A stretch of 64,000 nt of DNA from a virus (IMGVR_UViG_3300028584_000450:159394-223393), one strand, 5' to 3'. Counted from the stretch's first letter, positions 1 through 17,222 are shown. Translations and numbers: made by a program. Notes: generated from the sequence alone by a model not told the origin.

Positions 1-466
1 GGAGTCTTATAATCAAAAAGAATGGGATGATATTAAATTTATACAAGATAATATATCAATCTCAAAATTTGGAGTTGTTCGCGGATTACATTATCAATTA
101 AATAATCCACAAGGAAAATTAGTCAGAGTATTATCTGGAAGAATATTTGATGTTGTCGTTGATATTAGAGTAGGTTCTCCAACATTCGGACAATGGAAAG
201 GGTTTTATCTATTTAGTATATCTGATCAACTATGGGTTCCTCCAGGATTTGCTCATGGATTTAGTGTACATAGTGAAAATGCAACTGTTCTTTATAAATG
301 TACTGATTATTATTGTTCAGCGGATTCTTATATAATTAATGTAAATGATCCTAACATTAATATTAGATGGGATTGTACAAAACCTATTATATCTGAAAGA
401 GATATGTGTGCTCCATATCTCAAAAACATAGATAATGAAAACCTCCCTAAATATATAAAGGATTAA
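1..466 (+). CDS. rmlC: dTDP-4-dehydrorhamnose 3,5-epimerase (RmlC), 5'-truncated at window edge
   Basis: Frame from nt 2. Cupin motifs RGLHYQ, GRIFDVVVDIRVGSPTFGQW and WVPPGFAHGF. TAA at 464-466. Confidence 0.9.
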   Translation, partial: ESYNQKEWDDIKFIQDNISISKFGVVRGLHYQLNNPQGKLVRVLSGRIFDVVVDIRVGSPTFGQWKGFYLFSISDQLWVPPGFAHGFSVHSENATVLYKCTDYYCSADSYIINVNDPNINIRWDCTKPIISERDMCAPYLKNIDNENLPKYIKD

Positions 467-732
467 TGATGGAAGTTGATGGAACCCAATGTGATACTCA
501 AGAATTCACAAATAAGAATATATTAAGACACCTTCTTGGAACATATAAAAATAATAAAACTCCACAAATATGTCAAGATTGTCTTAAACATATTAATGAA
601 GTTGATAAACTATCTGAACTTATTTGCAGATGGATAATTTCTGAAATTGCAATATATGAATTTAAAAACCAATTTAAACCAGATAATAATACAACAACTA
701 CGTTTTGTTTTAATCTGTGCAATGGTATTTGA
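466..732 (+). CDS. hypothetical Cys-rich small protein
   Basis: ATG overlaps rmlC stop (TAATG). 88-aa ORF with several CxxC pairs. No homology recognised. Confidence 0.3.
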   Translation: MMEVDGTQCDTQEFTNKNILRHLLGTYKNNKTPQICQDCLKHINEVDKLSELICRWIISEIAIYEFKNQFKPDNNTTTTFCFNLCNGI

Positions 733-784
733 TAAATTATACGGATATGATACAATTATCATATCCGTATTTTTTATAAATGTC

Positions 785-794
785 ATATAGATAT
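785..794 (+). promoter_or_regulatory. ATATAGATAT promoter-like motif
   Basis: Exact 10-mer in intergenic DNA. Member of a ~25-copy family. Confidence 0.4.
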
Positions 795-1037
795 TTATAA
801 TTATGAAAGATAAATGTAATTTTTTCTAAAGACATGAACATTATATTAATAACAGCGTGTCTTGAGAAATATTTTGTATCCGATTGGATATAAAACTATT
901 TCTTTGTTTTTTGAAACAAAGAAAAATAGATATACAACTTTTAGTAAGTAGATTTTCTAAGCTCCCAAGAATACATGTATCGGATTATTGTGGGATAATT
1001 TGATAACTAGACAATCTAAATGTTACGGTGGAGTGAA

Positions 1038-1079
1038 AGTGAGAATATTGTATAGGGGATGCAATATTCTCACTTTTTA
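1038..1079 (+). terminator. rho-independent terminator hairpin
   Basis: 13-bp stem AGTGAGAATATTG/CAATATTCTCACT, 11-nt loop, then TTTTT. Confidence 0.6.
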
Positions 1080-1144
1080 CCGATCAGATTAAAAATAAAT
1101 TAACACGGTTTTGCTGGTTGGAATCTATTATTTTTGACAATAAT

Positions 1145-1154
1145 ATAGAGATAT
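1145..1154 (+). promoter_or_regulatory. ATAGAGATAT promoter-like motif (variant)
   Basis: Variant of the ATATAGATAT family, 55 nt upstream of the first array gene. Confidence 0.4.
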
Positions 1155-1208
1155 AATATAATAGATACATTATAACCATTTTATTTAAATTTTATTGGAG
1201 CCTATTAT

Positions 1209-1733
1209 ATGAATAATAAACTATTAAATAAATTAAAATCTAGAATTATAGATGATTTTCGCTTTTTAACTGCAATGACACCAGAAGAGCAAACTCCGGA
1301 ACTTTGTAAATTTGCAATCGAGAGGAATCCAAATTCAATACAATATATGTATGATCAAACAGAGGAATTATGTAGGTTTGCAATAATGAATAATGTATGG
1401 AATTTTCAGCATATAAAAAATCCATCTATAGAATTATGTAGATTTGCAATTGAGAGAAATGGACATCTATTATCATACATAAAGAAACAAACACCAGAAT
1501 TATGTGAAATAGCAGTAATGGAAAATGGATTTGCATTAAGTCATGTACTAAACCAAACTCCGAAATTATGTAAACTTGCAATTGAACAAGATGGGGTAGT
1601 ATTAAAATATGTGAAAAATAAAACATTAGAATTATGCATGATTGCAATTAAACAAAATCAGAAAGCACTAAAATATGTAAATGAAACTAAATTCCCAGAA
1701 ATTCATGAATATTGGAGGTTACTATATGAATAA
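1209..1733 (+). CDS. DUF4116-like tandem-repeat protein, array paralog 1
   Basis: ~33-aa repeats QTPELCKFAIERNP..IQYMYDQTEELC. C-terminal KFPEIHEYWRLLYE. TAA overlaps next start. Confidence 0.8.
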   Translation: MNNKLLNKLKSRIIDDFRFLTAMTPEEQTPELCKFAIERNPNSIQYMYDQTEELCRFAIMNNVWNFQHIKNPSIELCRFAIERNGHLLSYIKKQTPELCEIAVMENGFALSHVLNQTPKLCKLAIEQDGVVLKYVKNKTLELCMIAIKQNQKALKYVNETKFPEIHEYWRLLYE

Positions 1734-2643
1734 TGAAATGTTAGAAAAATATAAAAAACAAATTATACAAAATATTGACATTTTACAGGATATACCAATA
1801 AAAGATCAAACTCGGGAACTTTGTGAGTTTGCAATTAATGCAAATCCATGGGCATTCAAATATATAAAAAACCAAACAAAAGATATTTGTAAACTTGCAA
1901 TTGAGAGACTTCCAAGTTCAATCCAATATATAAAAAAACAAACTCCGGAACTTTGTAAACTTGCAGTCAAGTTGAATCCATTGTGCATTCAGTATATAAT
2001 AAATCAAACTCCAAAACTCTGTAAATTTGCAATTGAGAGAAATGCATTTTGCATTGAACATATAAATGATCCAACTGAAGAATTGTGTAATTTTGCAATT
2101 AAAGTAGATCCAGAATCAATACGATATATAAAAAAACAAACTTCAGAACTATGCGAATTAGCTATTAAATCTAAACCACTCACAATTAAATATGTAAAAA
2201 GACAAACAAAAAAACTTTGTGAATTGGCAATAAAGAAAGATTGGTCTGCAATAGAACATGTAAGGAACCAAACAGAAGACTTGTGCAGATTTGCAATAAG
2301 GAAAGAACCATGGGCGATTCGATATATACATGACCAAACAGAAGAATTATGTAAAATTGTACTAAAAAAAGATCCAGCTGTAATAGAATACATAAAAAAT
2401 CAAACACCAGAAATCTGTAATTTTGCATTTGCAATAGATAGTCGTACATTTAAATATATAAATAATCCAACGGAAGAATTATGTAAAAATGCAATCGTCA
2501 ATGATATATCCACAATGGTATATATGAAATTAACAGAGGAAATATGTAAGTTTGCAATTGAATTTGATAGACATGCAATTTTATATCTCAACCCAACTAA
2601 ATATCCAGAAGCTATTGAATATTGGAGTCTATTATATGGATAA
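1726..2643 (+). CDS. DUF4116-like tandem-repeat protein, array paralog 2
   Basis: ATG 8 nt after GGAGG embedded in upstream EYWRLLY codons. Nine QTPELCK-type repeats. C-terminal EYWSLLYG. Confidence 0.8.
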   Translation: MNNEMLEKYKKQIIQNIDILQDIPIKDQTRELCEFAINANPWAFKYIKNQTKDICKLAIERLPSSIQYIKKQTPELCKLAVKLNPLCIQYIINQTPKLCKFAIERNAFCIEHINDPTEELCNFAIKVDPESIRYIKKQTSELCELAIKSKPLTIKYVKRQTKKLCELAIKKDWSAIEHVRNQTEDLCRFAIRKEPWAIRYIHDQTEELCKIVLKKDPAVIEYIKNQTPEICNFAFAIDSRTFKYINNPTEELCKNAIVNDISTMVYMKLTEEICKFAIEFDRHAILYLNPTKYPEAIEYWSLLYG

Positions 2644-3226
2644 TAAACGATTTGAAAAATATAAAAACCAACTTAGAAAAGATATTAGTATTTTAGAAAA
2701 TATCCCAATAGAGGATCAAACCAAAGAATTATATAGGTTTGCAATTGAATTGGATGCTAGTTCAATTCAATATATAAAGGATCAAACTCCAGAACTTTGT
2801 AAATTTGCAGTAACTGAAAATGGATGGAGCCTTGCTCATATAAAAGACCAAACTCCGGAATTATGTAAACTTGCTATTGAATCAGATCCATGGGCTATTA
2901 AAAATGTAAAAGATCAAACTCCCGAATTATGCGAATTAGCTATTAAATCTGACCCATGGGCGCTCAAATATATAACAAATCCAACTGAAGAATTATGCAA
3001 ATTAGCAGTTGAAAAAAATGCATGGACAATAAAATATGTAAAAAAACAAACTCCAGAATTATGTAAAATTGCAGTAACTCGCATGGTTGATGCATTTCAA
3101 CATGTAGAAATTTTAACTGAAGAATTATGTATGATTGCAATTAGGCAATCTCGGGATATAATAGGTCATATAGATGAAACTAAATTCCCACAAATTCATG
3201 AATATTGGAGATTATTATATGGATAG
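2636..3226 (+). CDS. DUF4116-like tandem-repeat protein, array paralog 3
   Basis: Same repeat and C-terminal motif. Start within ATGGATAA overlap. Confidence 0.8.
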   Translation: MDNKRFEKYKNQLRKDISILENIPIEDQTKELYRFAIELDASSIQYIKDQTPELCKFAVTENGWSLAHIKDQTPELCKLAIESDPWAIKNVKDQTPELCELAIKSDPWALKYITNPTEELCKLAVEKNAWTIKYVKKQTPELCKIAVTRMVDAFQHVEILTEELCMIAIRQSRDIIGHIDETKFPQIHEYWRLLYG

Positions 3227-4127
3227 TAAATCTAAACCAATAACATATATTGAATATGTCGAATTAAAATTGACTAACCAACCCACACATCATATGAATT
3301 CGATAGAAGATATGATATTTAAAGATGGATCTAAAATTAAAGATATAGAAAACCCATCAGAAAAATTATGCAAAATAGTAATAACTCAAAATGGAATGAA
3401 TATTCAATATATAAAGAATCAAACTAAAGACCTATGTCGATTAGCAATTCACAATCAACCATTATCAATTCAACACATAAAAGATCAAACTCCGGAATTA
3501 TGTGAAATTGCAGTTGAATTAAATATAACTGCATTGAAACATATAGTAAATCAAACTATGGAATTATGTACAACTGCAATATATCGACATCCACAAGCAA
3601 TATCATATATAAGAAACCAAATTCCAAAATTATGCACAACAGCAGTTATGCAAGATGGATTATCATTAAAGTATATAAAATACCAAACTAAATTACTTTG
3701 TAGACTTGCAGTTATGCAAAATCCATATGCATTTACATTTGTAAAAAAACAGACTTTACAGATATGTAAATTAGCGGTTAGTCGAGATGGGTATATGATT
3801 AATTTTGTAAAACATCAAACTCCAGAACTTTGTAAACTTGCGGTTAAGCAAAGTGGAATTTCAATCGTACATATAAAAAAACAAACTCCGGAACTTTGTA
3901 AACTTGCAGTAATGTCAGATAGTGTAGCATTAAAGTATATAAAATATCAAACTCCGGAAATATGTAAAATTGCAATTGAACAACAACCATCAATGTTACC
4001 ACATGTAAAAGATAAAACATTAGAATTATGTATGATTGCAATTAAACAAAATCGATTAACAATTGGGTGTATTAGTAAAACTAAATTCCCAGAAGCCCAC
4101 GAATATTGGAGGTTATTATATGAGTAA
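3219..4127 (+). CDS. DUF4116-like tandem-repeat protein, array paralog 4
   Basis: Same family. C-terminal KFPEAHEYWRLLYE. Confidence 0.8.
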   Translation: MDSKSKPITYIEYVELKLTNQPTHHMNSIEDMIFKDGSKIKDIENPSEKLCKIVITQNGMNIQYIKNQTKDLCRLAIHNQPLSIQHIKDQTPELCEIAVELNITALKHIVNQTMELCTTAIYRHPQAISYIRNQIPKLCTTAVMQDGLSLKYIKYQTKLLCRLAVMQNPYAFTFVKKQTLQICKLAVSRDGYMINFVKHQTPELCKLAVKQSGISIVHIKKQTPELCKLAVMSDSVALKYIKYQTPEICKIAIEQQPSMLPHVKDKTLELCMIAIKQNRLTIGCISKTKFPEAHEYWRLLYE

Positions 4128-4812
4128 GAAAAAACTTAAGAAAGAACTTAAGAAAAAAGTTAAAGTTAATTATTGTGTGGAATTACACAAACATATAATT
4201 ATGAAAGAACCATATTTAATTCAACATATGAAAATTCAACCTATAGAATTTTGTAAATTATTAATAGAACAAAACTCATGGTCTATCAAATATATAAGAG
4301 ACCAAACTCCGGAATTATGTAAACTTGCAATTGAGAGAAATCCAAATAATATAAGACATATAAGAAATCAAACTGAAGAATTATGTAAATTTGCAATTGA
4401 AAGAAGTGCAAGTGCAATCCAATATATAATAAACCAAACAGAAGACATCTGTAAACATGCAATTAGGTTTGATTCATATTCAATTAAATATATAAAGAAT
4501 CAAACCCCAGAATTATGTAGACTTGCAATTAATAAAAATGGTTGGTCGATACAACATATAAAAGATCAAACGGAAGAATTCTGTAAACTTGCAATAATGG
4601 ATAGTTGCACCTCAATTCAATTTATAAAAAATCAAACAGAAGAAATATGCAAATATTCAATCATACAATTACCAGGAACAATTAAATATATACGAAAGCC
4701 AACTAAAGAATTATGCATATTGGCAATTGAATTAAGTTCAAATGCAATTAATTACATTAATAAAAATAAATTCCCAGAAGCCCACGAATATTGGAGGTTA
4801 TTATATGGATAA
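4120..4812 (+). CDS. DUF4116-like tandem-repeat protein, array paralog 5
   Basis: Same family. Start after GGAGG. Confidence 0.8.
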   Translation: MSKKKLKKELKKKVKVNYCVELHKHIIMKEPYLIQHMKIQPIEFCKLLIEQNSWSIKYIRDQTPELCKLAIERNPNNIRHIRNQTEELCKFAIERSASAIQYIINQTEDICKHAIRFDSYSIKYIKNQTPELCRLAINKNGWSIQHIKDQTEEFCKLAIMDSCTSIQFIKNQTEEICKYSIIQLPGTIKYIRKPTKELCILAIELSSNAINYINKNKFPEAHEYWRLLYG

Positions 4813-5386
4813 TGTAAGTATTGGAGGATGTTATATGGATAAAGAAGAATTTAAAGCATTTAAATATGAAATTGATCAGAATCCTGAAAGATGTAAACGT
4901 GCAATTGAAATGGATGGGAAATTAATAATGCATGTGAGAGATCAAACAGAAGAGTTATGTAAAATTGCAATTGAAAGAAATCCATATGCAATCAAATTTA
5001 TAAGAAAACAAACTCCCGAATTATGTAAACTTGCAGTTAAACGAGATGGATATGTATTAGAATACATAAAAGATCAAACAGAAGAGATATGTGAATTAGC
5101 AGTTAAAGCAGATCCATGGTCAATTGAATTCGTAAAAAAACAAACTCCAGAATTATGCTTGACTGCGATAAGAACAAATGCAACTGCACTTGAATATATA
5201 GAAAATCAACCAGCATCACTTTGTAAACTTGCAGTTGAGTTAAATCCATGGGCGATTAAATATGTAAAAGACCAAACTATCGATCTATGTAAATTTGCAA
5301 TAGGACAAGATAAATTGATAATAACATATATAGATAAAAATAAATTCCCAGAAGTGTATGAATATTGGAGATTATTATATGGATAA
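4805..5386 (+). CDS. DUF4116-like tandem-repeat protein, array paralog 6
   Basis: Same family. Junction SD+ATG duplicated in tandem (alternative start 4835). Confidence 0.75.
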   Translation: MDNVSIGGCYMDKEEFKAFKYEIDQNPERCKRAIEMDGKLIMHVRDQTEELCKIAIERNPYAIKFIRKQTPELCKLAVKRDGYVLEYIKDQTEEICELAVKADPWSIEFVKKQTPELCLTAIRTNATALEYIENQPASLCKLAVELNPWAIKYVKDQTIDLCKFAIGQDKLIITYIDKNKFPEVYEYWRLLYG

Positions 5387-5903
5387 AGAACAATTTGAAA
5401 AATATAAAAACCAAATTTCAGAAAATATTACTATTTTCCAGGAACTCTCAATAGAAGACCAAACTCCAGAACTTTGCATGTTTGCAGTTGATAAATGTGC
5501 ATGGTCTATGCAATATGTAAAAAATCAATTTCCAGAATTATGCAAATTGGCAGTTGAACGAGATGGATGTTCAATCCAATATATAAGAGACCAAACTCCG
5601 GAATTATGTAAACTTGCCATTGAAGAAAACCCATATGCAATGGCATATATAATAGATCAAACAAAAGATTTATGTAAACTTGCAGTCACTCTAAATGGTC
5701 GGGCAATACAATATATGGAGGATCAAATTCCAGAATTATGTGAAACATCAGTGTTATATGAACCCCATCTGATTCAATTTATAAGAAAACCAACTATAGA
5801 ATTATGTAAACTTGCAATTGAACAAAATAAATTGGTGATAATGTATATAAATAAAAACAAATTCCCAGAAGTACATGAATATTGGAGATTATTATATGGA
5901 TAA
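5379..5903 (+). CDS. DUF4116-like tandem-repeat protein, array paralog 7
   Basis: Same family. Confidence 0.8.
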   Translation: MDKEQFEKYKNQISENITIFQELSIEDQTPELCMFAVDKCAWSMQYVKNQFPELCKLAVERDGCSIQYIRDQTPELCKLAIEENPYAMAYIIDQTKDLCKLAVTLNGRAIQYMEDQIPELCETSVLYEPHLIQFIRKPTIELCKLAIEQNKLVIMYINKNKFPEVHEYWRLLYG

Positions 5904-6426
5904 AGATGCGTTAAGAAATTATGAATCTAGAATTTTTAAAAACCCACATCTATTTAAGGATATGCCAGTTGAATATCAAACACCAACATTATGCAAATTT
6001 GCAATTGAACAGGTTCCACAATTATTAAAATATATAAGAAGACAAACCCCAACATTATGTAAAATTGCAATTCAGCAAAATCAATATGCATTAGAGTATG
6101 TAAGATACCAAACATACGATATATGTAAATTAGCAGTCACCCTAAATGGATTTGCAATTCGATTTGTAAAAAATCAAACAAAAGAATTATGCAAATTGGC
6201 AATTAAAGAAGATCCATGGTCTATTAAATATATAAAAGATCAAACTCCGGAATTATGCAATTTTGCAGTTAAATTACATGGACCCATAATAGGGAGTATA
6301 TCAGATGAATATATAACTACAGAGTTATGTATAACAGCAATTAAACAAAACCAAAATTCAATTGATTATATTAACAAAATTAAATTCCCAGAAGCCTATG
6401 ATTATTGGAGATTATTATATGGATAA
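5896..6426 (+). CDS. DUF4116-like tandem-repeat protein, array paralog 8
   Basis: Same family. Confidence 0.8.
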   Translation: MDKDALRNYESRIFKNPHLFKDMPVEYQTPTLCKFAIEQVPQLLKYIRRQTPTLCKIAIQQNQYALEYVRYQTYDICKLAVTLNGFAIRFVKNQTKELCKLAIKEDPWSIKYIKDQTPELCNFAVKLHGPIIGSISDEYITTELCITAIKQNQNSIDYINKIKFPEAYDYWRLLYG

Positions 6427-6916
6427 AAGAATGAATGAAGAAGAATATGAACAATTTAAATCTGGAATTAATCAAACTCCAGAACTATGTAAACGGGCAA
6501 TTAAACAATATGCATGGTCATTCAAATTTATAAAAAACCAAACTCTTGAACTATGTAAACTTGCAATTGAAAGAGATGCATATATAATAGAATATGTAAA
6601 CGATCAAACTCCAGAATTATGTAAATTAGCAATTGAGAGAAATGGATATTGCTTTCAATATGTAAAAGATCAAACTCCAGAGTTATGCGAACTTGCAGTT
6701 AAGAAAAATTCACTCATAATAGAATATGTAAAAGATCAGACACTAGAATTGTGTCGATTAGCAATATCAATCAACCCATGGACAATTAAATTGGTAAGAA
6801 AGCCAACTATAGAATTATATAAATTTGCAATTGAATTAAATCAACAATCAATACACTATATAGATGAAACTAAATTCCCAGAAGTACATGAATATTGGAG
6901 GTTATTATATGGATAA
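6419..6916 (+). CDS. DUF4116-like tandem-repeat protein, array paralog 9
   Basis: Same family. Confidence 0.8.
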   Translation: MDKRMNEEEYEQFKSGINQTPELCKRAIKQYAWSFKFIKNQTLELCKLAIERDAYIIEYVNDQTPELCKLAIERNGYCFQYVKDQTPELCELAVKKNSLIIEYVKDQTLELCRLAISINPWTIKLVRKPTIELYKFAIELNQQSIHYIDETKFPEVHEYWRLLYG

Positions 6917-7751
6917 CAAATTAATACATCAATTTATGTCTGGTGATGCACTACAACAATTTATATCTGGTGAAAATCAAACTCCAGAACTTTGCAATGA
7001 ATTGGTATATAAATATCCATGGATTATTGAACATGTAAAAAATCAAACCTGGAAATTATGTAAACTTGCAATTAAAGGAAATCCACTTACAATAAAATAT
7101 ATAAGAAACCAAACAAAAAAACTTTGTGAATTGGCAATTAAACAAGATGTAAGATCAATTCAACATATAAAAGATCAAACAGAAGACTTGTGTGAATTAG
7201 CAATTAAACAAAGTTCATCTGCAATTCAATTTATAAGGGAACATACAGAAAAATTATGTAAGCTTGCAATTGAAGAGCATCCATGGTCTATGCAATATGT
7301 AAGAAATCAAACTCCCGAAATATGCGAATTTGCAGTTAAAGAATATGGATGTACATTAAAATACATAAAGGACCAAACTCCGGAATTATGCAGACTTGCA
7401 ATCATTCAAGATGAATGTGCTCTAGAATATGTAAAAGAACAAACAGAAGAACTGTGCAAAATTGCAATAAAAAAAGATGGGTTAGTGTTAGAATATGTAA
7501 AAGTTCAAACAAAAAATCTGTGCGAACTTGCAATTATAGAAGATCCAAGATCAATGCAATATGTAAACGATCAAACTCCGGAATTATGCAAACTTGCGAT
7601 TAAATTAGATCCATGGATTATACAATTTATAAAAAATCCAACTATAGAACTATGTAAACTTGCTATTGAAATAGACAAATATTCAATACGATATATAGAT
7701 AATTATAAATTCCCAGAAATATATGAATATTGGAGATTATTGTATGGATAA
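6909..7751 (+). CDS. DUF4116-like tandem-repeat protein, array paralog 10
   Basis: Same family. Confidence 0.8.
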   Translation: MDNKLIHQFMSGDALQQFISGENQTPELCNELVYKYPWIIEHVKNQTWKLCKLAIKGNPLTIKYIRNQTKKLCELAIKQDVRSIQHIKDQTEDLCELAIKQSSSAIQFIREHTEKLCKLAIEEHPWSMQYVRNQTPEICEFAVKEYGCTLKYIKDQTPELCRLAIIQDECALEYVKEQTEELCKIAIKKDGLVLEYVKVQTKNLCELAIIEDPRSMQYVNDQTPELCKLAIKLDPWIIQFIKNPTIELCKLAIEIDKYSIRYIDNYKFPEIYEYWRLLYG

Positions 7752-8310
7752 TGAAAAAATGAGTAATAAAGAATTAAAATTATTCAAAGCTGGAATTAAT
7801 CAGACTCCAGAATCATGTAAACTTGCTATTGAATTATATCCACATCTACTTAAGTTTATAATAAACCAAACTCCCGAATTATGTAAACTTGCAATTGAAA
7901 GAGATGCATATTACATTCAATATGTAAAAGATCAAACAACAGAACTCTGTAAACTTGCTATTAGAGAAAACCAACATTGCATTCAATATGTAAAAGATCA
8001 AACAGAAGAATTATGTAAACTTGCAATTGAGGGAAATGCATATGCAATTTCACATATAAAAAATCCAACTGAAGAGATGTGTAAATTAGCAATTTTACGA
8101 AATCCATGGTCTATCAAATATATAAAAGACCAAACTCCCGAATTGTGTAAATTAACATTATTAGATGAACCATATATGATTAAATATATACGAAAACCAT
8201 CTATAGAATTATGCAAACGTGCAATTGAATTAAATAAATATTCAATTAATTATATAGATGAAACTAAATTCCCAGAAATTCATGAATATTGGAGGTTGTT
8301 ATATGGATAA
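7744..8310 (+). CDS. DUF4116-like tandem-repeat protein, array paralog 11
   Basis: Same family. Confidence 0.8.
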   Translation: MDNEKMSNKELKLFKAGINQTPESCKLAIELYPHLLKFIINQTPELCKLAIERDAYYIQYVKDQTTELCKLAIRENQHCIQYVKDQTEELCKLAIEGNAYAISHIKNPTEEMCKLAILRNPWSIKYIKDQTPELCKLTLLDEPYMIKYIRKPSIELCKRAIELNKYSINYIDETKFPEIHEYWRLLYG

Positions 8311-8743
8311 AGACGACGATATAAATCATCTTAGAGATCTTGAAGAATTTAAGTCTGGAATTGGACAAACAGAAACCAGATGTAAAGAATTAATATATCA
8401 ATATCCATGGGTGATTAAATATATAATCAATCAAACAGACGAACTTTGTAAATTTGCAATTAATCGAAGTGTATATTCATTTGTATATATAAAAAAACAA
8501 ACTCCAGAACTTTGCAAATTGGCAGTTGCGATTGATCCGAATATATTAGAATATATAGAAAATCAACCAACATCACTTTGTAAACTTGCAGTTGAGTTAA
8601 ATCCATGGGCGATTAAATATGTAAGGAATCAAACTCCCGATTTATGTAAACTTGCAATAGAATCTAACAAATGGACATTAAAATACATTGATAGAACTAA
8701 ATTCCCAGAAATGCGAGAATATTGGAGACTATTATATGATTAA
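8303..8743 (+). CDS. DUF4116-like tandem-repeat protein, array paralog 12
   Basis: Same family. Ends LLYD with no overlapping start. Confidence 0.8.
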   Translation: MDKDDDINHLRDLEEFKSGIGQTETRCKELIYQYPWVIKYIINQTDELCKFAINRSVYSFVYIKKQTPELCKLAVAIDPNILEYIENQPTSLCKLAVELNPWAIKYVRNQTPDLCKLAIESNKWTLKYIDRTKFPEMREYWRLLYD

Positions 8744-8780
8744 AAAGTATATGGTAAATTATGATACCGAGATCTAACAC

Positions 8781-8888
8781 TCGAATTATATAAATTTGCA
8801 ATTGAACGAAACCAATATATACTACATTCGATAGATACTCGAGAATTCCCAGAAATAAAAGAATATTGGGGTTTATTATATGGGTAAA
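8781..8888 (+). pseudogene. decayed C-terminal fragment of an array paralog
   Basis: Encodes LYKFAIERNQYILHSIDTREFPEIKEYWGLLYG with no N-terminal part. SD GGAGG mutated to GGGG. Confidence 0.6.
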
Positions 8889-9305
8889 AGAATTATGACT
8901 GAAAGTGAATGGATTGAGATGCTTGAAAATGCATCGGATGTTCGTACTCGATCATACGATAAAGATATGAAAACTATTATAGAAATAATGAATCATATTC
9001 CAAAACTATGCAAATTAGCTATTGAACAATATTCATGGGCATTCCAACATATAAGAAAACAAACCCCGGAGTTATGCAAATTTGCAGTTGAAAATAATCC
9101 ATGGTTAATAAAATTTGTAAGAAATCAAACCCCAGAATTATGTAAAATTGCAGTAGAATCAAATTGTTGGAATTTAGAATATATAAGGAATCCAACAAAA
9201 GAATTATATATATCTGCAATTAAACAAGATAAGAGAATAATTATAATAATAAATAAAATTAAATTCCCAGAAGTATATGAATATTGGAGGTTATTGTATG
9301 GATAA
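8880..9305 (+). CDS. DUF4116-like tandem-repeat protein, array paralog 13
   Basis: Divergent N-terminus, then the same repeats and C-terminal motif. Confidence 0.75.
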   Translation: MGKRIMTESEWIEMLENASDVRTRSYDKDMKTIIEIMNHIPKLCKLAIEQYSWAFQHIRKQTPELCKFAVENNPWLIKFVRNQTPELCKIAVESNCWNLEYIRNPTKELYISAIKQDKRIIIIINKIKFPEVYEYWRLLYG

Positions 9306-9741
9306 TGAAATGGATAATGAAATGAATGATGAAGAATATGAACAATTCAAATCTGGAATTAATCAAACTCCCGAACTATGTAAACAGGCAATTAAACAAT
9401 ATGTATGGGCAATACAATATGTAAAAGATCAAACAGAAGAGTTATGTAAACTTGCAATTGAAGAAAATGCATATGCAATTTCACACATAAAAAATCCAAC
9501 TGAAGAGATGTGTAAATTAGCAATTTTACGAGATTCATGGTCTATTAAATATATAAAAGATCAAACTCCTGAAATATGTAAATTGGCATTATTAAATGAA
9601 CCATACTTGATTCAACATATACGAAATCCAACTACAGAACTGTGTAAGTTTGCAATTAAACATAAGAGTGCAGCAATTGAATTTATCGATAGAGATAAAT
9701 TTCCAGAAGTATATGAATATTGGAGGTTATTATATGAATAA
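9298..9741 (+). CDS. DUF4116-like tandem-repeat protein, array paralog 14
   Basis: Same family. Confidence 0.8.
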   Translation: MDNEMDNEMNDEEYEQFKSGINQTPELCKQAIKQYVWAIQYVKDQTEELCKLAIEENAYAISHIKNPTEEMCKLAILRDSWSIKYIKDQTPEICKLALLNEPYLIQHIRNPTTELCKFAIKHKSAAIEFIDRDKFPEVYEYWRLLYE

Positions 9742-10108
9742 AGATGACGATATAAATCATCTTAGAGATATTGAAGATTTTATGTCTGATAAAAATCAAA
9801 CAGAACAAAAATGTAAAGATGTGCTTAATAATAATGGTTATATGTTAACATATGTAAAGAATCGAACTCCTGAATTATGTAAACTTGCAGTTATGACAAA
9901 TGGAGGCGCATTAGAATATGTAAAAGATCAAACACCTGAAATATGTAAACTTGCAATATTGCGTGATCCATGGGCAATTAAACATGTAAAAGAACAAACT
10001 CTGGAATTATGTAAATTTTCAATAGAATGCAATAAATTCACAATACAATATATTGATAAAGATAAATTTCCAGAAGCACACGAGTATTGGAGGTTATTAT
10101 ATGAATAA
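9734..10108 (+). CDS. DUF4116-like tandem-repeat protein, array paralog 15
   Basis: Same family. Confidence 0.8.
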   Translation: MNKDDDINHLRDIEDFMSDKNQTEQKCKDVLNNNGYMLTYVKNRTPELCKLAVMTNGGALEYVKDQTPEICKLAILRDPWAIKHVKEQTLELCKFSIECNKFTIQYIDKDKFPEAHEYWRLLYE

Positions 10109-10559
10109 AAAAACATTAGAAAAATATAAACGACAAATTCGAAAGGATGCTCCAAATATATTCAATATACCAATAGAAAATCAAACTCCGGAACTTTGCA
10201 TATATGCAATTAATATAAATCCATGGGCATTTCAATATATAACGAACCAAACTCCCGAAATATGTAAACGGGCAATAGAAGAAAATCCATGGATGATTGA
10301 ATATGTAAAAGATCAAACAGAAGAATTATGTAAACTTGCAATTAAACTACTTCCATATTCAATCAAATTCATAAAAGAACAAACAGAAGAATTATGTAAA
10401 TTAGCAATTAAATTAGATGCTCGTTGCATTCACTATGTAAAAAATCAAACAGAAGAAATATGTATATTAGCAGTTAAGAAAGATAAAATGTCAATACATA
10501 ATATTGATAAAGATAAATTCCCACAAGCACATGAATATTGGAGACTGTTATATGAATAA
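10101..10559 (+). CDS. DUF4116-like tandem-repeat protein, array paralog 16
   Basis: Same family. Confidence 0.8.
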   Translation: MNKKTLEKYKRQIRKDAPNIFNIPIENQTPELCIYAININPWAFQYITNQTPEICKRAIEENPWMIEYVKDQTEELCKLAIKLLPYSIKFIKEQTEELCKLAIKLDARCIHYVKNQTEEICILAVKKDKMSIHNIDKDKFPQAHEYWRLLYE

Positions 10560-11076
10560 AGATAAATTTGAAAAATATAAACAACAAATTTCAGAAAATA
10601 TGTATGTATTCCAGGATATACCAATAGAAGATCAAACTCCGGAGTTATGCTTGTTTGCAATTAATATAAATCCATGGGCATTTCAATTTATAACAGACCG
10701 ATCTCCCGAAATATGTAAACGGGCAATAGAAGAAAATCCATGGATGATTGAACTTATAGAAGATCAAACAGAAGAATTATGTAAACTTGCAATTAAACTA
10801 CTTCCAGTTTCATTTAAATTCATAATAAACCAAACTCCTGAATTATGTAAACTTGCAGTTGAAAGAAATGTATATTGTATTCAATATGTAAAAGATCAAA
10901 CGGAAGAATTATGTAAACTTGCAATTGAACAAGATGGGAAATTATTAAAATATGTGAAAAATAAAACATTAGAATTATGCATGATTGCAATTAAACAAGA
11001 TCGGTTAGCAATTAAACGTATTAGTAAAATTAAATTCCCACAAGCACATGAATATTGGAGACTATTATATGGCTAA
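10552..11076 (+). CDS. DUF4116-like tandem-repeat protein, array paralog 17
   Basis: Same family. Confidence 0.8.
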   Translation: MNKDKFEKYKQQISENMYVFQDIPIEDQTPELCLFAININPWAFQFITDRSPEICKRAIEENPWMIELIEDQTEELCKLAIKLLPVSFKFIINQTPELCKLAVERNVYCIQYVKDQTEELCKLAIEQDGKLLKYVKNKTLELCMIAIKQDRLAIKRISKIKFPQAHEYWRLLYG

Positions 11077-11677
11077 TGTAGACTATTATATGGATGATGG
11101 AGCGATAATAGTTGGTAATGTTAATATAGACGAAATGAAAAAAATAAAACACATAAGGAAAATTAATAAAAGTGAAGAAGAATCAAAATTAGCAATTAAA
11201 CAAAATCCATTTGCATTACAATATGTAGAACATCAAACTAAAGAATTATGTTTGCATGCAATTAAAAAATCACCATGGGCATTTGAATATGTAAAGGATC
11301 AAACAGAAGAAATATGTAAATTCGCAGTTGAACTAAGTCCTTTTACACTTAAATTTATAAAAGAGCAAACAGAAGAATTATGTACAATTGCAGTTAATTT
11401 AGTGCCATCAGTAATTAGATATGTAATAAATCAAACCCCGGAATTATGCATGTCTGCAATAAGAAAAGATGCATTATCATTAGAGTATATACAAGTTCAA
11501 ACAAAAGAACTTTGTGAAATTGCAGTTAAAATTAATCCATGGGCAATGAGATATATAAAAAATCCAACCATCCGATTATATAAACTTGCAATTGAACAAG
11601 AACCAAAGACAATCGAATATATTGATGAGACTAAATTTCCAGAAGCTCATGAGTATTGGAGATTACTATACGGCTAA
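11069..11677 (+). CDS. DUF4116-like tandem-repeat protein, array paralog 18 (last)
   Basis: Same family. C-terminal EYWRLLYG. No downstream paralog. Confidence 0.8.
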   Translation: MANVDYYMDDGAIIVGNVNIDEMKKIKHIRKINKSEEESKLAIKQNPFALQYVEHQTKELCLHAIKKSPWAFEYVKDQTEEICKFAVELSPFTLKFIKEQTEELCTIAVNLVPSVIRYVINQTPELCMSAIRKDALSLEYIQVQTKELCEIAVKINPWAMRYIKNPTIRLYKLAIEQEPKTIEYIDETKFPEAHEYWRLLYG

Positions 11678-11731
11678 CCTAAACACTATTTATTATCCCC
11701 ACATAATAAATGTAAATTTGGTTGATATTAA

Positions 11732-11744
11732 TTAACGGCAAAAT
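11732..11744 (+). promoter_or_regulatory. TTAACGGCAAAAT motif
   Basis: One of 8 same-orientation copies in the window. 40 nt upstream of the 11785 start. Confidence 0.35.
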
Positions 11745-11784
11745 CTGATAGTCCAATTATAAAAATCCCATTTGGAGGCAAAAA

Positions 11785-12228
11785 ATGAAAAAAGTGAAAA
11801 AAGTAAGTAAAACAATAGATACGATAAAGACATTCAAAATCTCCCCAGATACAGAATATGATATTGAATTTGATGAAGATGGGCCTTTCGATTGTCTAAT
11901 ACAAATTAGACATTTTGTATATGGTATAAGTAGCGTTGGTATTACAAAATTAAATCTAGACAATGTAATTAAAGATGCCGAAATTGTAGTTGCGACAGCT
12001 AAACTCACTGAAGATATTGAACCTATAATTAAAGAATTGGTATCAACATGCATTACAACTAGATATAAAGTAAAAGAAGTAGATGGTATCAATGATATAA
12101 CTACCAAAGTTAATCATATGATTAAAAATAAACCAGAATTATGGATAAATATAATTGGAGGAATGTCTGCTATTAGACAAATGCGCAATGAAGAAATTTT
12201 AAGCCTAAATGAACCTAAATGGAGTTAG
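11785..12228 (+). CDS. hypothetical protein
   Basis: ORF with GGAGG upstream. Confidence 0.6.
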   Translation: MKKVKKVSKTIDTIKTFKISPDTEYDIEFDEDGPFDCLIQIRHFVYGISSVGITKLNLDNVIKDAEIVVATAKLTEDIEPIIKELVSTCITTRYKVKEVDGINDITTKVNHMIKNKPELWINIIGGMSAIRQMRNEEILSLNEPKWS

Positions 12229-12241
12229 ATTCAATATTATA

Positions 12242-12251
12242 ATATAGATAT
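12242..12251 (+). promoter_or_regulatory. ATATAGATAT promoter-like motif
   Basis: Exact 10-mer, immediately followed by a hairpin. Confidence 0.4.
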
Positions 12252-12257
12252 TATTGA

Positions 12258-12298
12258 TTATAGGGAATGAGAAATCATTCCCTATAATTACTATTTTT
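12258..12298 (+). terminator. hairpin plus T-run (terminator or 5' leader structure)
   Basis: Stem TTATAGGGAATGA/TCATTCCCTATAA, GAAA loop, then a T-run. Confidence 0.5.
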
Positions 12299-12324
12299 AT
12301 TAATCAATCTAGGAGGTTTAACAT

Positions 12325-12759
12325 ATGACATATAACATGAAAGATATCGAATATATTAATTTTAATAAGATATATAATTGGGAATATTATATGGGATTTG
12401 CATATGATATGATAACGGATAAATTAATAGAGCGATCAATGGACTTCAATTTAAAAAATATTAATATAGACGATCATTGGTATCATCAAGAATTTTTTAA
12501 TGACCTAAATAAAAGTAAACGTGATGTAATAAAAATGCATGCTTATCGAATTGCAGCACTAGCAACAATTATTAAGAACAATTCAAATGAGATAATTACC
12601 CCTATTGATTTTGACTCAATTCGGTGGAATAATGGTTGTTCTGGAGTTCAAGATGGTAATCATAGAATCAGAGCATTTCAATTTCTAAAATATAAAAGTT
12701 TTCCAGCAAATTGTTCTGGAGAAGAATCTGAGATATTTAAGATAATCGATCTGGATTAA
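12325..12759 (+). CDS. ParB-like nuclease domain protein
   Basis: DGNHRIRAF motif (ParB/Srx D-G-x-H-R box). SD GGAGG upstream. Confidence 0.5.
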   Translation: MTYNMKDIEYINFNKIYNWEYYMGFAYDMITDKLIERSMDFNLKNINIDDHWYHQEFFNDLNKSKRDVIKMHAYRIAALATIIKNNSNEIITPIDFDSIRWNNGCSGVQDGNHRIRAFQFLKYKSFPANCSGEESEIFKIIDLD

Positions 12760-12783
12760 TTTAAACTAAAATATATAGATATT

Positions 12784-12793
12784 AGTAAAATAT
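12784..12793 (+). promoter_or_regulatory. ATATAGATAT promoter-like motif
   Basis: Exact 10-mer, about 30 nt upstream of the 12822 start. Confidence 0.4.
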
Positions 12794-12821
12794 AGATAAT
12801 GATTTATTTTTAGGAGAACGA

Positions 12822-13349
12822 ATGGCTAAATTTAGAGAAATAAAACAATATACACAAACACCATATTATCAAATAAATGTTAGTTGGGAAGAAGTTGAAA
12901 GTAAATTAGAATCAATATATAATAATAGGATGGGATATAAAGTTGAGTTAATTCCAGATTTCCAAAGAGGACATATCTGGTCTGAAAAGAAACAAATTGA
13001 ATATGTTGAATTTAAACTTCGTGGAGGTAATGGATCGAATGTATTAATTTGGAATTGCCCAGGATGGATGAACTCGTATATTGGTCCATATCAATTAGTA
13101 GATGGATTGCAACGAATCACAGCCGTGCAAAGATTTATGAAGAATGAAATTAAAGCCTGTGGATATTTGTATTCTGAATATGAAGATAGATTATTAAGTA
13201 ATTGTGAATTCGTATGGACAATTAATAATCTTAAATATAGACGAGATATACTACAATGGTATATTGAATTAAATTCTGGAGGTGTCGTTCATACACAAAA
13301 AGAAATAGATAGAATAAAATCGCTATTAGAAGTCGAACTTAAACTTTAA
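12822..13349 (+). CDS. DUF262 (ParB-like/GmrSD N-terminal) domain protein
   Basis: IPDFQRGHIW and VDGLQRITAV match the DUF262 signature motifs. Confidence 0.6.
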   Translation: MAKFREIKQYTQTPYYQINVSWEEVESKLESIYNNRMGYKVELIPDFQRGHIWSEKKQIEYVEFKLRGGNGSNVLIWNCPGWMNSYIGPYQLVDGLQRITAVQRFMKNEIKACGYLYSEYEDRLLSNCEFVWTINNLKYRRDILQWYIELNSGGVVHTQKEIDRIKSLLEVELKL

Positions 13350-13372
13350 AATTGTTGGAGCCTATTTAAAAA

Positions 13373-13930: not shown

Positions 13931-13941
13931 TTAAACTCAAA

Positions 13942-13979
13942 TCATAGGAATATATAACGTATTCCTATGATTATTTTTT
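13942..13979 (+). terminator. rho-independent terminator
   Basis: Stem TCATAGGAATA/ATTCCTATGA followed by TTATTTTTT. Confidence 0.6.
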
Positions 13980-13999
13980 ATAAAGGAATTCTCCAGATC

Positions 14000-14374: not shown

Positions 14375-14382
14375 GGAGAAAT

Positions 14383-15129: not shown

Positions 15130-15156
15130 TATAATTCAATTATTTTTGTATAGTTT

Positions 15157-15166
15157 ATATAGATAT
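15157..15166 (+). promoter_or_regulatory. ATATAGATAT promoter-like motif
   Basis: Exact 10-mer. Confidence 0.4.
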
Positions 15167-15332
15167 ATAAGTTAGAATAGGTCTGAAAATCTTTAGGACT
15201 GTAAATATCAAAGATGATTTATTTGGAGGCAATGTAACCTATAATTATGAGGAGTGGTATCACCTAAGTATTGGATTAGAGATTAAAGTAGAGGTTGTAT
15301 TCGAAATAAATGCCAAAAAGGAAATTAAAACA

Positions 15333-15926: not shown

Positions 15927-15935
15927 AAAAATAAT

Positions 15936-17214: not shown

Positions 17215-17222
17215 GAATAAAT

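What the first reader, a model, noticed from the sequence alone, without database searches (positions are those of the whole stretch)
1209..11677. Accordion-like array of 18 tandem paralogs whose conserved C-terminus encodes the next gene's ribosome-binding site and start
Eighteen head-to-tail genes (four to nine ~33-aa QTPELCKLAIExNPWAIKYVKDQTEELC repeats each) all end in ...KFPE(A/V/I)HEYWRLLYG. The codons for EYWRLLYG (GAA TAT TGG AGG TTA TTA TAT GGA TAA) contain a GGAGG Shine-Dalgarno and, 7-8 nt later, the ATG of the next paralog; the stop falls inside ATGGATAA. Every copy therefore brings its own translation-initiation signal as part of its coding sequence, which would help unequal crossing-over keep producing functional new copies. 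Repeat number per gene varies, one junction is duplicated (4805/4835) and one copy has decayed to a fragment (8781-8888). That pattern suggests an actively expanding and contracting family, much like the accordion amplification of host-interaction genes in poxviruses and giant viruses. The repeat resembles DUF4116 (NGxALxY...EL..A), a domain of unknown function seen in giant viruses, trypanosomatids and some bacteria. The ORF-track N-terminal extensions such as MKLNSQKFMNIGGYYM are just the previous gene's 3' end read in another frame.
Basis: partly seen in the sequence, partly recalled or inferred. Interest (0 to 1): 0.75.

Follow-up and report, generated by a model that had tools for sequence, protein, structure and literature searches.

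The report
Coupled operon of 18 phage repeat-protein paralogs
A large uncultivated phage-like genome carries one long operon of 18 old, diverged copies of a small helical-repeat protein (DUF4116); the last helix of each copy also spells the ribosome-binding site and start codon of the next copy, which is a tidy but mechanistically ordinary case of translational coupling, not a currently expanding "accordion".

Summary
Window 1209-11677 holds 18 head-to-tail + strand genes. Each has a short leader, 4-12 strictly 22-aa DUF4116 units (not ~33 aa) and a 15-aa tail, xKFPExxEYWRLLY(G/E/D)*. TGGAG is invariant in the tail. The next gene's ATG lies 7-8 nt downstream, and the stop falls 5 nt after that ATG (ATGGATAA, -8 nt overlap) at 16 of 17 junctions. 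GGAG 5-9 nt before ATG is this genome's normal ribosome-binding site.

The tail is dual-coded. AlphaFold2 models it as the C-terminal helix of an alpha-solenoid. The last gene keeps the peptide but loses the ATG through a synonymous change. Gene 1 has the same DNA module upstream as non-coding sequence.

The accordion reading is not supported. Copies are only 65-77% identical in DNA (youngest pair dS about 0.4). A second metagenome assembly, 99.94% identical, has the same genes 1-18 with no indels.

One perfect sigma-70 consensus promoter (1134-1162) precedes the array, and there is no + strand terminator inside it.

The host element is at least 122 kb, probably about 257 kb, ORFan-rich and phage-like, perhaps infecting Desulfobacteraceae. 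Protein function is unknown. A diversified early binder set is an inference.

Verdict: new variant of known kinds; moderate interest.

The parts
1134..1162 (+). Perfect sigma-70 consensus promoter, TTGACA-17 nt-TATAAT, 46 nt upstream of gene 1
   Evidence: 12/12 match. It is the only perfect match in the 64-kb window; chance expectation is 0.22 per window. Consensus match only, not shown to be active.
1193..1216 (+). Non-coding copy of the junction module (TATTGGAGCCTATTATATGAATAA) that supplies the RBS and start of gene 1
   Evidence: It reads FKFYWSLLYE* in the tail frame, but no ORF lies upstream.
1209..1733 (+). Paralog 1 (174 aa, 6 units)
1726..2643 (+). Paralog 2 (305 aa, 12 units; tail EYWSLLYG, SD GGAGT)
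2636..3226 (+). Paralog 3 (196 aa, 7 units; TAG stop)
3219..4127 (+). Paralog 4 (302 aa, 11 units)
4120..4812 (+). Paralog 5 (230 aa, 8 units)
4805..5386 (+). Paralog 6 (193 aa, 7 units). The 30-nt SD+ATG module is duplicated in frame, so the start is at 4805 or 4835.
5379..5903 (+). Paralog 7 (174 aa, 6 units). This is the copy that was modelled.
   Evidence: Holds the SNP cluster at 5484-5511 relative to L003.
5896..6426 (+). Paralog 8 (176 aa, 6 units)
6419..6916 (+). Paralog 9 (165 aa, 6 units)
6909..7751 (+). Paralog 10 (280 aa, 11 units)
7744..8310 (+). Paralog 11 (188 aa, 6 units plus 1 degenerate unit)
   Evidence: Its closest relative is paralog 14 (83% nt over the C-terminal 309 nt).
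8303..8743 (+). Paralog 12 (146 aa, 5 units; tail ...EYWRLLYD)
8736..8887 (+). Collapsed 19th copy. A 13-codon stub ORF (8736-8777) is followed by an out-of-frame last unit plus tail ending EYWGLLYG*. It still supplies a weakened SD (TGGGG) and the ATG for paralog 13.
8880..9305 (+). Paralog 13 (141 aa, 4 units). It is the only copy that does not overlap a full upstream paralog.
9298..9741 (+). Paralog 14 (147 aa, 5 units)
9734..10108 (+). Paralog 15 (124 aa, 4 units)
10101..10559 (+). Paralog 16 (152 aa, 5 units)
10552..11076 (+). Paralog 17 (174 aa, 6 units)
11069..11677 (+). Paralog 18 (202 aa, 6 units plus 1 degenerate unit). A 21-nt in-frame duplicate of the start module gives ATGs at 11069 and 11090. 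The tail is kept as peptide, but the embedded ATG is lost (TAC GGC TAA).
11785..12228 (+). Unrelated 147-aa ORFan with its own GGAGG RBS; probably the last cistron of the same transcript
   Evidence: There is no terminator between 11677 and 12255. The exact protein is also found on a 256,898-bp contig.
12255..12290 (+). First + strand intrinsic-terminator-like hairpin after the array (16-bp stem followed by a T run)

Best explanation
The region is a single polycistronic operon of about 11 kb in a large phage-like genome. It is probably an early operon transcribed by the host polymerase. It encodes 18 old, diverged paralogs of a capped alpha-solenoid protein of the DUF4116 family. Each protein has an N-terminal cap/leader, 4-12 two-helix units of exactly 22 residues, and a C-terminal cap helix (PExxEYWRLLY).

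The DNA for that cap helix is dual-coded. The Trp-Arg codons (TGG AGR) form the Shine-Dalgarno core GGAG. The Leu-Leu codons form the A/T-rich spacer. The Tyr-Gly/Glu codons contain the next gene's ATG. The stop follows 5 nt later, giving the ATGGATAA, -8 nt overlap.

A ribosome finishing copy n therefore terminates right on the initiation region of copy n+1. Translation is passed down the array by termination-reinitiation and/or SD-assisted de novo initiation on an unstructured site. This would give roughly co-ordinated output of all 18 proteins from one promoter.

The array arose by ancient tandem and block duplications. Some blocks spanned junctions, and unit numbers were changed by in-register unequal recombination. 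The array has since diverged under purifying to relaxed selection and is not turning over now.

Shown: the anatomy, family membership, RBS geometry, divergence levels, identical structure in a second sample, and the predicted fold.

Inferred: coupling itself, promoter activity, early timing, and the biological role. The most likely role is a diversified set of protein-binding scaffolds used in host takeover or counter-defence.
For: Anatomy and tail:
- DUF4116 match: E 1.9e-10 to 8e-23 in the six copies tested. A repeat HMM built from this array's own units recovers exactly these 18 ORFs in the window.

RBS and start:
- The genome-wide RBS is GGAG(A/G) 4-12 nt before ATG in 50/56 other ORFs.
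- Tail Arg is 17/17 AGR, with AGG 8/17 against 11/104 elsewhere in the array (p = 9e-4) and against 24/429 in other ORFs (p = 4e-6).
- The same module serves as a non-coding RBS for gene 1.
- The -8 nt class is one of the three start/stop overlaps enriched in prokaryotes (PMC12548453).
- No stable RNA structure forms at the junction (consensus -0.5 kcal/mol).

Tail as a protein element:
- The AF2 model has pLDDT 97.4, with two helices per unit and the tail as helix 163-173.
- The last gene keeps the peptide with three synonymous changes, one of which removes the ATG.
- An unlinked outlier paralog ends ...YDIWKLLYE* with TGG AAA, so it has no GGAG, and no paralog follows it.
- Codons -10 and -9 inside the conserved block are highly variable. 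This argues against simple homogenisation by gene conversion.

Operon:
- The only perfect TTGACA-17-TATAAT in 64 kb lies at 1134-1162.
- Terminator-like hairpins occur only at 739-770 and 12255-12290 on the + strand.

Age:
- The best DNA identity between copies is 77% over about 630 nt, and 65-70% is typical.
- The closest pair has dS 0.39 and dN/dS 0.39. Median pS is 0.49. Nearest relatives are mostly non-adjacent.
- An independent assembly has no indels and differs from the window within the array only by 8 SNPs.

Phage-like context:
- The region is ORFan-dense and co-oriented, with tail-fibre-like, SPFH and phosphoesterase PHROG hits.
- The element spans at least 122 kb across overlapping contigs, and a 256,898-bp contig carries the neighbouring gene.
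Against: - No expression, ribosome-profiling or proteomic data exist. Coupling and start sites rest on sequence logic.
- The promoter and terminators are consensus matches only.
- The codon statistics treat paralogs as independent, although they share ancestry.
- The -8 overlap is reported to couple less efficiently than -4 to +3 in some reporter studies. SD-driven de novo initiation may therefore dominate.
- No phage hallmark gene (capsid, terminase, portal) lies in the window or the fetched flanks, so 'phage' is not proven.
- The function of DUF4116 is unknown. There are no PADLOC hits and no significant fold match to any solved structure.
- Copy-number stability rests on a single comparator that is 99.94% identical.
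Confidence: 0.72

Rival explanations
1. Active genomic accordion. The array is being amplified and trimmed now by unequal crossing-over under selection from the host, as with poxvirus K3L or the experimentally evolved T4/T6 anti-defence amplifications.
For: - The genes form a head-to-tail array with a uniform architecture.
- Unit number varies from 4 to 12 in strict 66-nt register.
- There are two micro-duplicated junctions and one collapsed copy.
- Block duplications span junctions, for example 7931-8538 against 9362-9969.
- Large phages are reported to undergo accordion-like expansions (PMC13359090, PMC13096335).
Against: - No two copies exceed 77% DNA identity over about 600 nt, or 83% over 309 nt.
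- The youngest pair has dS about 0.39, against 0.06% divergence between the two sampled genomes.
- Closest relatives are mostly non-adjacent genes.
- The second assembly has the same genes 1-18 with no indel.
- dN/dS of 0.3-0.7 indicates long-maintained genes.
Confidence: 0.08
2. The tail is conserved only as a protein element (C-cap or targeting signal), and the GGAG/ATG inside it are incidental. Each gene would then start elsewhere, for example at the upstream in-frame ATG/TTG used by some automatic calls.
For: - The tail is a confident helix in the model.
- The tail is kept as peptide in the last gene and in the outlier paralog, where no RBS is needed.
- IMG calls use MNIGDYYM-type upstream starts for some copies.
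Against: - The upstream candidate starts lack any SD. They exist only where the tail happens to read NET/DET/HEY.
- Genes 1 and 13 have no upstream start at all, and they use the homologous post-GGAG ATG.
- The ATG is lost in exactly the one tail with no gene after it, and GGAG is absent from the outlier.
- AGR-only usage and AGG enrichment at the Arg codon.
- The geometry equals the genome's standard RBS.
Confidence: 0.07
3. The nucleotide-level sameness of the junctions is kept by concerted evolution, that is, gene conversion between copies. Selection on an RBS or a cap would then play no part.
For: - The 45-nt block is 90-100% conserved while the flanks are about 65%.
- The rare Phe codon TTC is retained in 14/17 tails against 14/86 elsewhere (p = 2e-7).
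- A 5-SNP cluster in gene 7 could be a conversion patch.
Against: - Two codons inside the block (-10 and -9) are highly variable, with 8 and 5 different codons. Conversion tracts would homogenise them.
- Conservation stops sharply at the ends of the constrained amino acids and at +8.
- Strong codon bias (AAA, CCA, GAA, TAT, TTA) plus amino-acid conservation explains most positions.
- No donor was found for the SNP cluster.
Confidence: 0.08
4. The array belongs to a bacterial chromosome or plasmid, for example effector-like repeat proteins of a low-GC Desulfobacterales relative, not to a phage.
For: - A full-length methyl-accepting chemotaxis protein (47886-49943) is 64-66% identical to Desulfobacteraceae MCPs.
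- No capsid or terminase gene was seen.
- The element is absent from IMG/VR and from GenBank phages.
Against: - About 28% GC, with densely packed co-oriented ORFans of 100-200 aa and almost no housekeeping Pfam hits.
- Tail-fibre/collagen-like PHROG hits, a T7 Gp5.9-like gene, SPFH phrog_200, thymidylate synthase and DUF2201.
- The element is absent from 185,579 species-representative genomes.
Confidence: 0.15

Closest known systems
DUF4116 (Pfam PF13475) repeat proteins of giant viruses, some phages (PHROGs 5925, 17056, 25923, 35305) and a few bacteria
   Same: Significant profile matches (PHROG matches). The unit signature QTxELCxxA...Y[VI] is the same. An alpha-solenoid is predicted both here and in the literature (PMC8078820). 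Many homologs also end in a short PE...LF/LY-type C-terminal helix.
   Different: Elsewhere these genes are single or in clusters of 2-5 with their own intergenic RBSs, for example in Bacillus jumbo phage AgentSmith and in GVMAG contigs. They are often fused to other N-terminal domains. The KFPExxEYWRLLYG tail and the overlapping junction were found nowhere else: not in the DNA pattern scans and peptide-pattern scans of viral and metagenome contigs, not in the DNA pattern scan of genome contigs, and not among the best 150 hits of a profile search of 1.84 billion representative proteins, where only this element's own proteins cover the whole module.
Translationally coupled operons with overlapping stop/start (termination-reinitiation; -4/-1/-8 nt classes)
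   Same: Co-directional genes, -8 nt overlap (NTGNNTAA), an SD inside the upstream ORF at normal spacing, and an unstructured junction.
   Different: The same junction is repeated 16 times between paralogs. It is written in the codons of a conserved structural helix, so the constraint runs both ways: the C-cap of copy n, and the M-[D/N/S/A]-[K/N/S] N-terminus of copy n+1.
Genomic accordions (poxvirus K3L; segmental amplification of anti-defence genes in T4/T6)
   Same: Tandem head-to-tail gene copies in a large virus. The role may be in host interaction.
   Different: Accordion copies are near-identical, recent and copy-number polymorphic. These copies are 65-77% identical, have dS of at least 0.39, and are unchanged in a second sample.
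Lineage-specific expansions of solenoid repeat proteins (ankyrin, Sel1-like, HEAT/ARM, designed capped repeat proteins such as DARPins and alphaRep)

Membership tests
DUF4116 (PF13475) | Profile match above Pfam's gathering score | tested here: met
   40.6-80.2 bits against a cut-off of 24.9 for the six paralogs tested. A repeat HMM built from the array's own units finds all 18.
DUF4116 (PF13475) | Tandem short helical units that form an alpha-solenoid | tested here: met
   121 units of exactly 22 aa. AF2 pLDDT is 97.4, with a two-helix unit. The literature model is also an alpha-solenoid (PMC8078820).
Genomic accordion (recent gene amplification) | Tandem head-to-tail copies of one gene | tested here: met
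   18 copies plus 1 collapsed copy.
Genomic accordion (recent gene amplification) | Copies near-identical, reflecting recent amplification | tested here: not met
   Maximum 77% nt identity over about 630 nt; best pair dS 0.39; median pS 0.49.
Genomic accordion (recent gene amplification) | Copy-number differences between closely related genomes or within populations | tested here: inconclusive
   One comparator assembly (99.94% identical) has identical structure for genes 1-18. No more distant relative was found. Short-read assemblies cannot show within-population variants.
Translationally coupled operon (termination-reinitiation type) | Co-directional neighbours with stop/start overlap of the -4, -1 or -8 nt class | tested here: met
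   -8 nt at 16 of 17 junctions between consecutive full-length genes. The exception is 12 to 13, where the collapsed copy intervenes.
Translationally coupled operon (termination-reinitiation type) | Shine-Dalgarno for the downstream gene inside the upstream ORF at functional spacing | tested here: met
   GGAG 7-8 nt before ATG at every junction, which equals the genome-wide RBS.
Translationally coupled operon (termination-reinitiation type) | One transcription unit | tested here: inconclusive
   A consensus promoter at 1134-1162, and no + strand terminator-like site until 12255. These are pattern matches only.
Translationally coupled operon (termination-reinitiation type) | Downstream translation depends on upstream translation | not testable with these tools
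   Needs reporter or ribosome-profiling experiments.
Ankyrin / HEAT / ARM / TPR / Sel1-like repeat families | Profile or fold match to the family | tested here: not met
Jumbo phage (>200 kb tailed phage) | Genome over 200 kb with phage hallmark genes | tested here: inconclusive
   The neighbouring gene occurs on a 256,898-bp contig. Overlapping contigs span at least 122 kb. Only tail-fibre-like and accessory phage families were seen, with no capsid or terminase in the sequence fetched.

The most novel reading that the evidence does not exclude
The 18 coupled cistrons may not be redundant binders. They could be ordered subunits of one hetero-oligomeric solenoid assembly. The invariant C-terminal helix of copy n would dock on the conserved N-cap of copy n+1 as the two are made back-to-back by the same ribosome. 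On this reading the dual-coded junction is a portable 'cap + initiation' cassette that keeps every unequal-crossover product both translatable and assembly-competent. It would be an evolvability device for building a variable, modular phage structure or decoy.
Probability: 0.07. Interest if true: 0.7.

Novelty: new variant of a known kind. Interest (0 to 1): 0.4.

Why it matters
- It is the largest tandem DUF4116 array seen in any collection searched here, with 18 intact genes and about 121 units. It sits in a prokaryotic virus-like genome, whereas the family is best known from giant viruses of eukaryotes.
- It is a clean natural example of dual coding. One 24-nt module is at once a structural cap helix, an SD, a spacer, a start codon and a stop codon, and it is reused at 17 junctions. 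Built-in controls come with it: the non-coding copy before gene 1, the ATG-less last tail, and the GGAG-less outlier.
- This makes it a convenient system for testing how translational coupling constrains protein termini.
- It also gives a starting point for assigning a function to DUF4116, because 18 diverged capped solenoids come from one promoter.
- It does not open a long-standing question, and the mechanism is standard.

Tried and rejected
- Near-identical DNA in GenBank phages: none.
- The junction DNA pattern in IMG/VR, GTDB representative genomes and JGI metagenome contigs: none.
- Tail peptide patterns in viral and metagenome contigs: none confirmed.
- Flanking genes in IMG/VR, and the 147-aa neighbour in the 5.8-billion-protein set: only the same element was found. 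No moderately diverged relative could therefore be compared for copy number.
- Conserved RNA structure that sequesters the SD (UUCC pairing with GGAG): the predicted 5-bp helix has essentially no stability, -0.5 kcal/mol. Rejected.
- Programmed frameshift fusing neighbours (the downstream frame is +1): there is no slippery motif. tRNA re-pairing at UAU-GGA-UAA is poor and the SD spacing is wrong for prfB-like +1 shifting. Rejected on sequence reasoning.
- Gene-conversion donor for the 5-SNP cluster in gene 7: no matching donor in the array.
- SNP enrichment in the array relative to flanks: 8 against 3, not significant (p = 0.23).
- Defence or anti-defence assignment through PADLOC: no hit for the paralogs.
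- Literature on AgentSmith: nothing held.
- A 66-aa three-unit alignment was too variable for locus scanning. A narrower alignment worked.

Full report
**What is there**

Window 1209-11677 contains 18 co-oriented ORFs on the + strand. Printing the last 20 codons of each shows that all end in K[F/Y]P[E/Q]xx[E/D]YW[R/S]LLY[G/E/D]*.

At the DNA level the consensus is AAA TTC CCA GAA nnn nnn GAA TAT TGG AGR TTA TTA TAT GGA TAA. The features of the tail are:
- TGGAG is invariant (18/18). The codon after Trp is AGG in 8 tails, AGA in 9 and AGT in 1.
- In 17 tails the Tyr-Gly/Glu codons contain an ATG.
- The stop lies 5 nt after that ATG: ATGGATAA x10, ATGAATAA x4, and one each of ATGGATAG, ATGAGTAA, ATGGCTAA and ATGATTAA.
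- Sixteen of the 17 junctions between consecutive full-length genes are therefore 8-nt overlaps.
- The exception is 12 to 13. There a collapsed 19th copy (8736-8887) intervenes. It is a 13-codon stub, then in another frame a last unit plus tail ending EYWGLLYG*, and it still provides TGGGG and the ATG for gene 13.

There is a second, partial one at 11069/11090 (21 nt, in frame).

**Corrections to the observation**

The repeat period is 22 residues (66 nt), not about 33. Stepping back from the tail gives 121 clean units, 4-12 per gene. Only two terminal units depart from the exact register.
- The core is conserved: Q1 T2 E4 L5 C6 A9 I/V10 I17 Y19 I/V20.
- Positions 3, 7, 8, 11-16, 18, 21 and 22 are variable.
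- Cys is present at position 6 in 117/121 units.

Each protein is a leader of 18-55 aa, then n units, then a 15-aa tail.

**Family**

All six copies tested match Pfam DUF4116 (PF13475) well above the gathering score. They also match four PHROGs of unknown function.

AlphaFold2, run on the alignment of 15 paralogs, gives a very confident model for paralog 7 (mean pLDDT 97.4, pTM 0.87). It is an alpha-solenoid with a 10-residue and a 6-residue helix per unit. The leader forms an N-terminal cap and the tail forms a C-terminal helix, residues 163-173.

**Is the embedded RBS real?**

In 56 other long ORFs of the window, 50 have a GGAG/GAGG/AGGA-type motif 4-12 nt before the ATG, and GGAG(A/G) is the commonest form. 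The junction has GGAG followed by 7-8 nt and then ATG, which is the genome's standard initiation region.

Four internal controls support function.
1. Gene 1 has no gene upstream, yet it is preceded by the same module, TATTGGAGCCTATTATATGAATAA, as non-coding DNA. It has no alternative upstream start. Gene 13 likewise has no alternative start.
2. The last gene has no paralog after it. It keeps the peptide EYWRLLYG, but by three synonymous changes (TTA to CTA, TAT to TAC, GGA to GGC), one of which destroys the ATG.
3. The tail Arg is AGR in 17/17 cases, although CGN supplies about 39% of Arg codons elsewhere in the array (p = 7e-4). The otherwise rare AGG is used 8 times in 17, against 11/104 in the array (p = 9e-4) and 24/429 in other ORFs (p = 4e-6). 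These tests overstate significance because paralogs share ancestry.
4. A diverged DUF4116 gene lies about 1.3 kb upstream of the array, just outside the window, in the 99.94%-identical contig (L051 7819-8196). It ends ...KELYDIWKLLYE* with the DNA GATATTTGGAAATTATTATATGAATAA. This is the same module, but with Lys AAA in place of Arg AGR, so it has no GGAG, and no paralog follows it.

Together these controls say two things. The tail is an ancestral protein element, a cap helix. In the array its codons also carry the SD, spacer, start and stop.

The constraint runs both ways: every downstream protein begins M-[D/N/S/A]-[K/N/S].

RNAalifold finds no stable structure at the junction (-0.5 kcal/mol).

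The -8 nt overlap is one of the three start/stop spacings enriched in prokaryotes and is associated with translational coupling (PMC12548453).

**Operon**

The only perfect TTGACA-17-TATAAT in the whole 64-kb window lies at 1134-1162, 46 nt before gene 1. The chance expectation is 0.22 per window on either strand.

On the + strand, terminator-like hairpins occur only at 739-770, ending the upstream gene, and at 12255-12290, after the unrelated 147-aa ORF 11785-12228. Promoter-like matches inside the array are fewer than in shuffled sequence (69 against 98.9).

The simplest reading is one transcript of about 11 kb from a strong host-type promoter. The transcript and its timing are inferred.

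**Age and dynamics**

A self-comparison gives at most 77% identity (9850-10484 against 10301-10935, and 7931-8538 against 9362-9969). Identities of 65-70% are typical. Several of these alignments span junctions, so past duplications involved multi-gene or out-of-register blocks.

Over the C-terminal 309 nt:
- The closest pair (genes 11 and 14) is 83% identical, with dS 0.39, dN 0.15 and dN/dS 0.39.
- Median pS is 0.49 and median pN is 0.31.
- dN/dS ranges from 0.3 to 0.7.
- Nearest relatives are mostly non-adjacent: 1-17, 6-12, 3-13 and 11-14.

Within the conserved 45-nt block, codons -10 and -9 are highly variable. The block is therefore not simply homogenised by gene conversion. One oddity remains: the rare Phe codon TTC is kept in 14/17 tails, against 14/86 elsewhere.

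**Other samples**

The element occurs in at least three other data sets.
- JGI 3300033562 contig Ga0371476_1186455 (44 kb) covers window positions 1-19948 at 99.94% with no indel. All 18 genes have the same structure. Within the array it differs from the window only by 8 SNPs, 7 of them non-synonymous, and 5 are clustered at 5484-5511 in gene 7.
- A Logan contig from SRR21758068 begins inside the array, at window position 11034.
- JGI 3300028549 contig Ga0308317_1467490 (77 kb) covers window position 20407 onward at 99.85%.

The comparator is nearly the same strain, however, and no more distant relative could be found.

**Context**

The window is about 28% GC. It is packed with co-oriented ORFans. 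The few family hits are these:
- an SPFH/Band-7 protein (phrog_200)
- a phosphoesterase and a phosphatase
- a small GmrSD_N/DUF262-like protein
- a DnaJ-zinc-finger-like protein
- a PcfJ-like protein
- collagen/tail-fibre-like segments in a 2052-aa and a 288-aa protein
- a T7 Gp5.9-like ORF

It also carries a full-length methyl-accepting chemotaxis protein (47886-49943, - strand). The best named relatives of this protein are Desulfobacteraceae MCPs at 64-66% identity.

Overlapping contigs span at least 122 kb, and the gene next to the array is on record on a 256,898-bp contig. I read this as a large, probably jumbo, phage of a Desulfobacteraceae-like host. No capsid or terminase gene was seen, so this stays at roughly 70-85% confidence.

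**Comparison with known systems**

DUF4116 relatives found with a unit alignment are mostly in giant-virus MAGs and in a few large phages. They occur as single genes or clusters of 2-5. In Bacillus jumbo phage AgentSmith they have separate RBSs and unrelated C-termini. Only five bacterial MAG loci matched.

The full last-unit-plus-tail module was matched end to end only by this element's own proteins among the best 150 hits of a profile search of 1.84 billion representative proteins. In that search, 4,400 DUF4116-like clusters matched at E <= 0.001.

The array is therefore a new variant within known kinds: a lineage-specific expansion of a solenoid repeat family, organised as a translationally coupled operon. 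It is not an accordion in the poxvirus or T4/T6 sense.

**Function**

Nothing here assigns a biochemical role. My best inference is low-confidence. It rests on the capped-solenoid architecture with variable exposed positions, the strong host-type promoter and the neighbouring small ORFans. On that basis the array would be a set of early-expressed protein-binding scaffolds used in host takeover or counter-defence, diversified long ago.

A less likely but more interesting alternative is that coupled synthesis reflects ordered assembly of a hetero-oligomer through the conserved caps.

Noticed in passing
L051 7819-8196 (equivalent to window -456..-79, just outside the window; same element, JGI Ga0371476_1186455): An additional, more diverged DUF4116 paralog (125 aa, 4 degenerate units). 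It is separated from the array by two unrelated genes, a terminator and the promoter. Its tail is ...YDIWKLLYE* with TGG AAA instead of TGG AGR, so it has no GGAG.
   Followed up: yes
window 5484-5511 (paralog 7, first unit): Five SNPs within 28 nt, four of them non-synonymous, relative to an otherwise 99.94%-identical assembly. No exact donor exists elsewhere in the array. This could be a micro-conversion, a strain chimera or a diversifying spot.
   Followed up: partly
window 47886-49943 (- strand): A full-length methyl-accepting chemotaxis protein (Cache-HAMP-MCP signalling) sits inside an ORFan-rich, phage-like region. It is 64-66% identical to Desulfobacteraceae MCPs. This is an unusual cargo gene and the best clue to the host.
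   Followed up: partly
window 49967-56125 (- strand) and 57306-58172 (- strand): A 2052-aa protein and a 288-aa protein with short collagen/tail-fibre-like segments (phrog_5073, 6320). Both are otherwise unassigned.
   Followed up: no
window about 19950-20400: Two independent JGI contigs break here. One ends at window position 19948 and the other begins near 20407. This suggests a repeat or a strain-variable spot. The gene strand switches from + to - at 19953-21501.
   Followed up: no
window 1620-11677, codon -13 of each tail (AAA TTC CCA GAA): The rare Phe codon TTC is kept in 14 of 17 tails, against 14 of 86 Phe codons elsewhere in the array. This nucleotide-level conservation 25 nt upstream of the SD is not explained by codon bias or by the predicted RNA structure.
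   Followed up: partly
L003 / L051 gene tables (window genes 1, 5 and 17): The IMG gene calls reduce three intact paralogs to 31- or 71-aa fragments, although the DNA is identical to the window there. Public annotation therefore under-counts this family, perhaps because of repeat masking or overlap penalties.
   Followed up: no
window 12822-13349 and 13373-13930: Just after the operon lie a short GmrSD_N/DUF262-like protein (which also matches the PADLOC NsnA and PD-T4-2_A models) and a DnaJ-zinc-finger-like protein (weak match to anti-termination Q-like phrog_127).
   Followed up: no
L001 (Bacillus phage vB_BspM_AgentSmith, MW749006.1 93147-103579): Several DUF4116 genes of this jumbo phage are annotated as 'conjugal transfer protein TrbH' or 'acetyltransferase'. 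By the repeat HMM these look like mis-annotations.
   Followed up: partly
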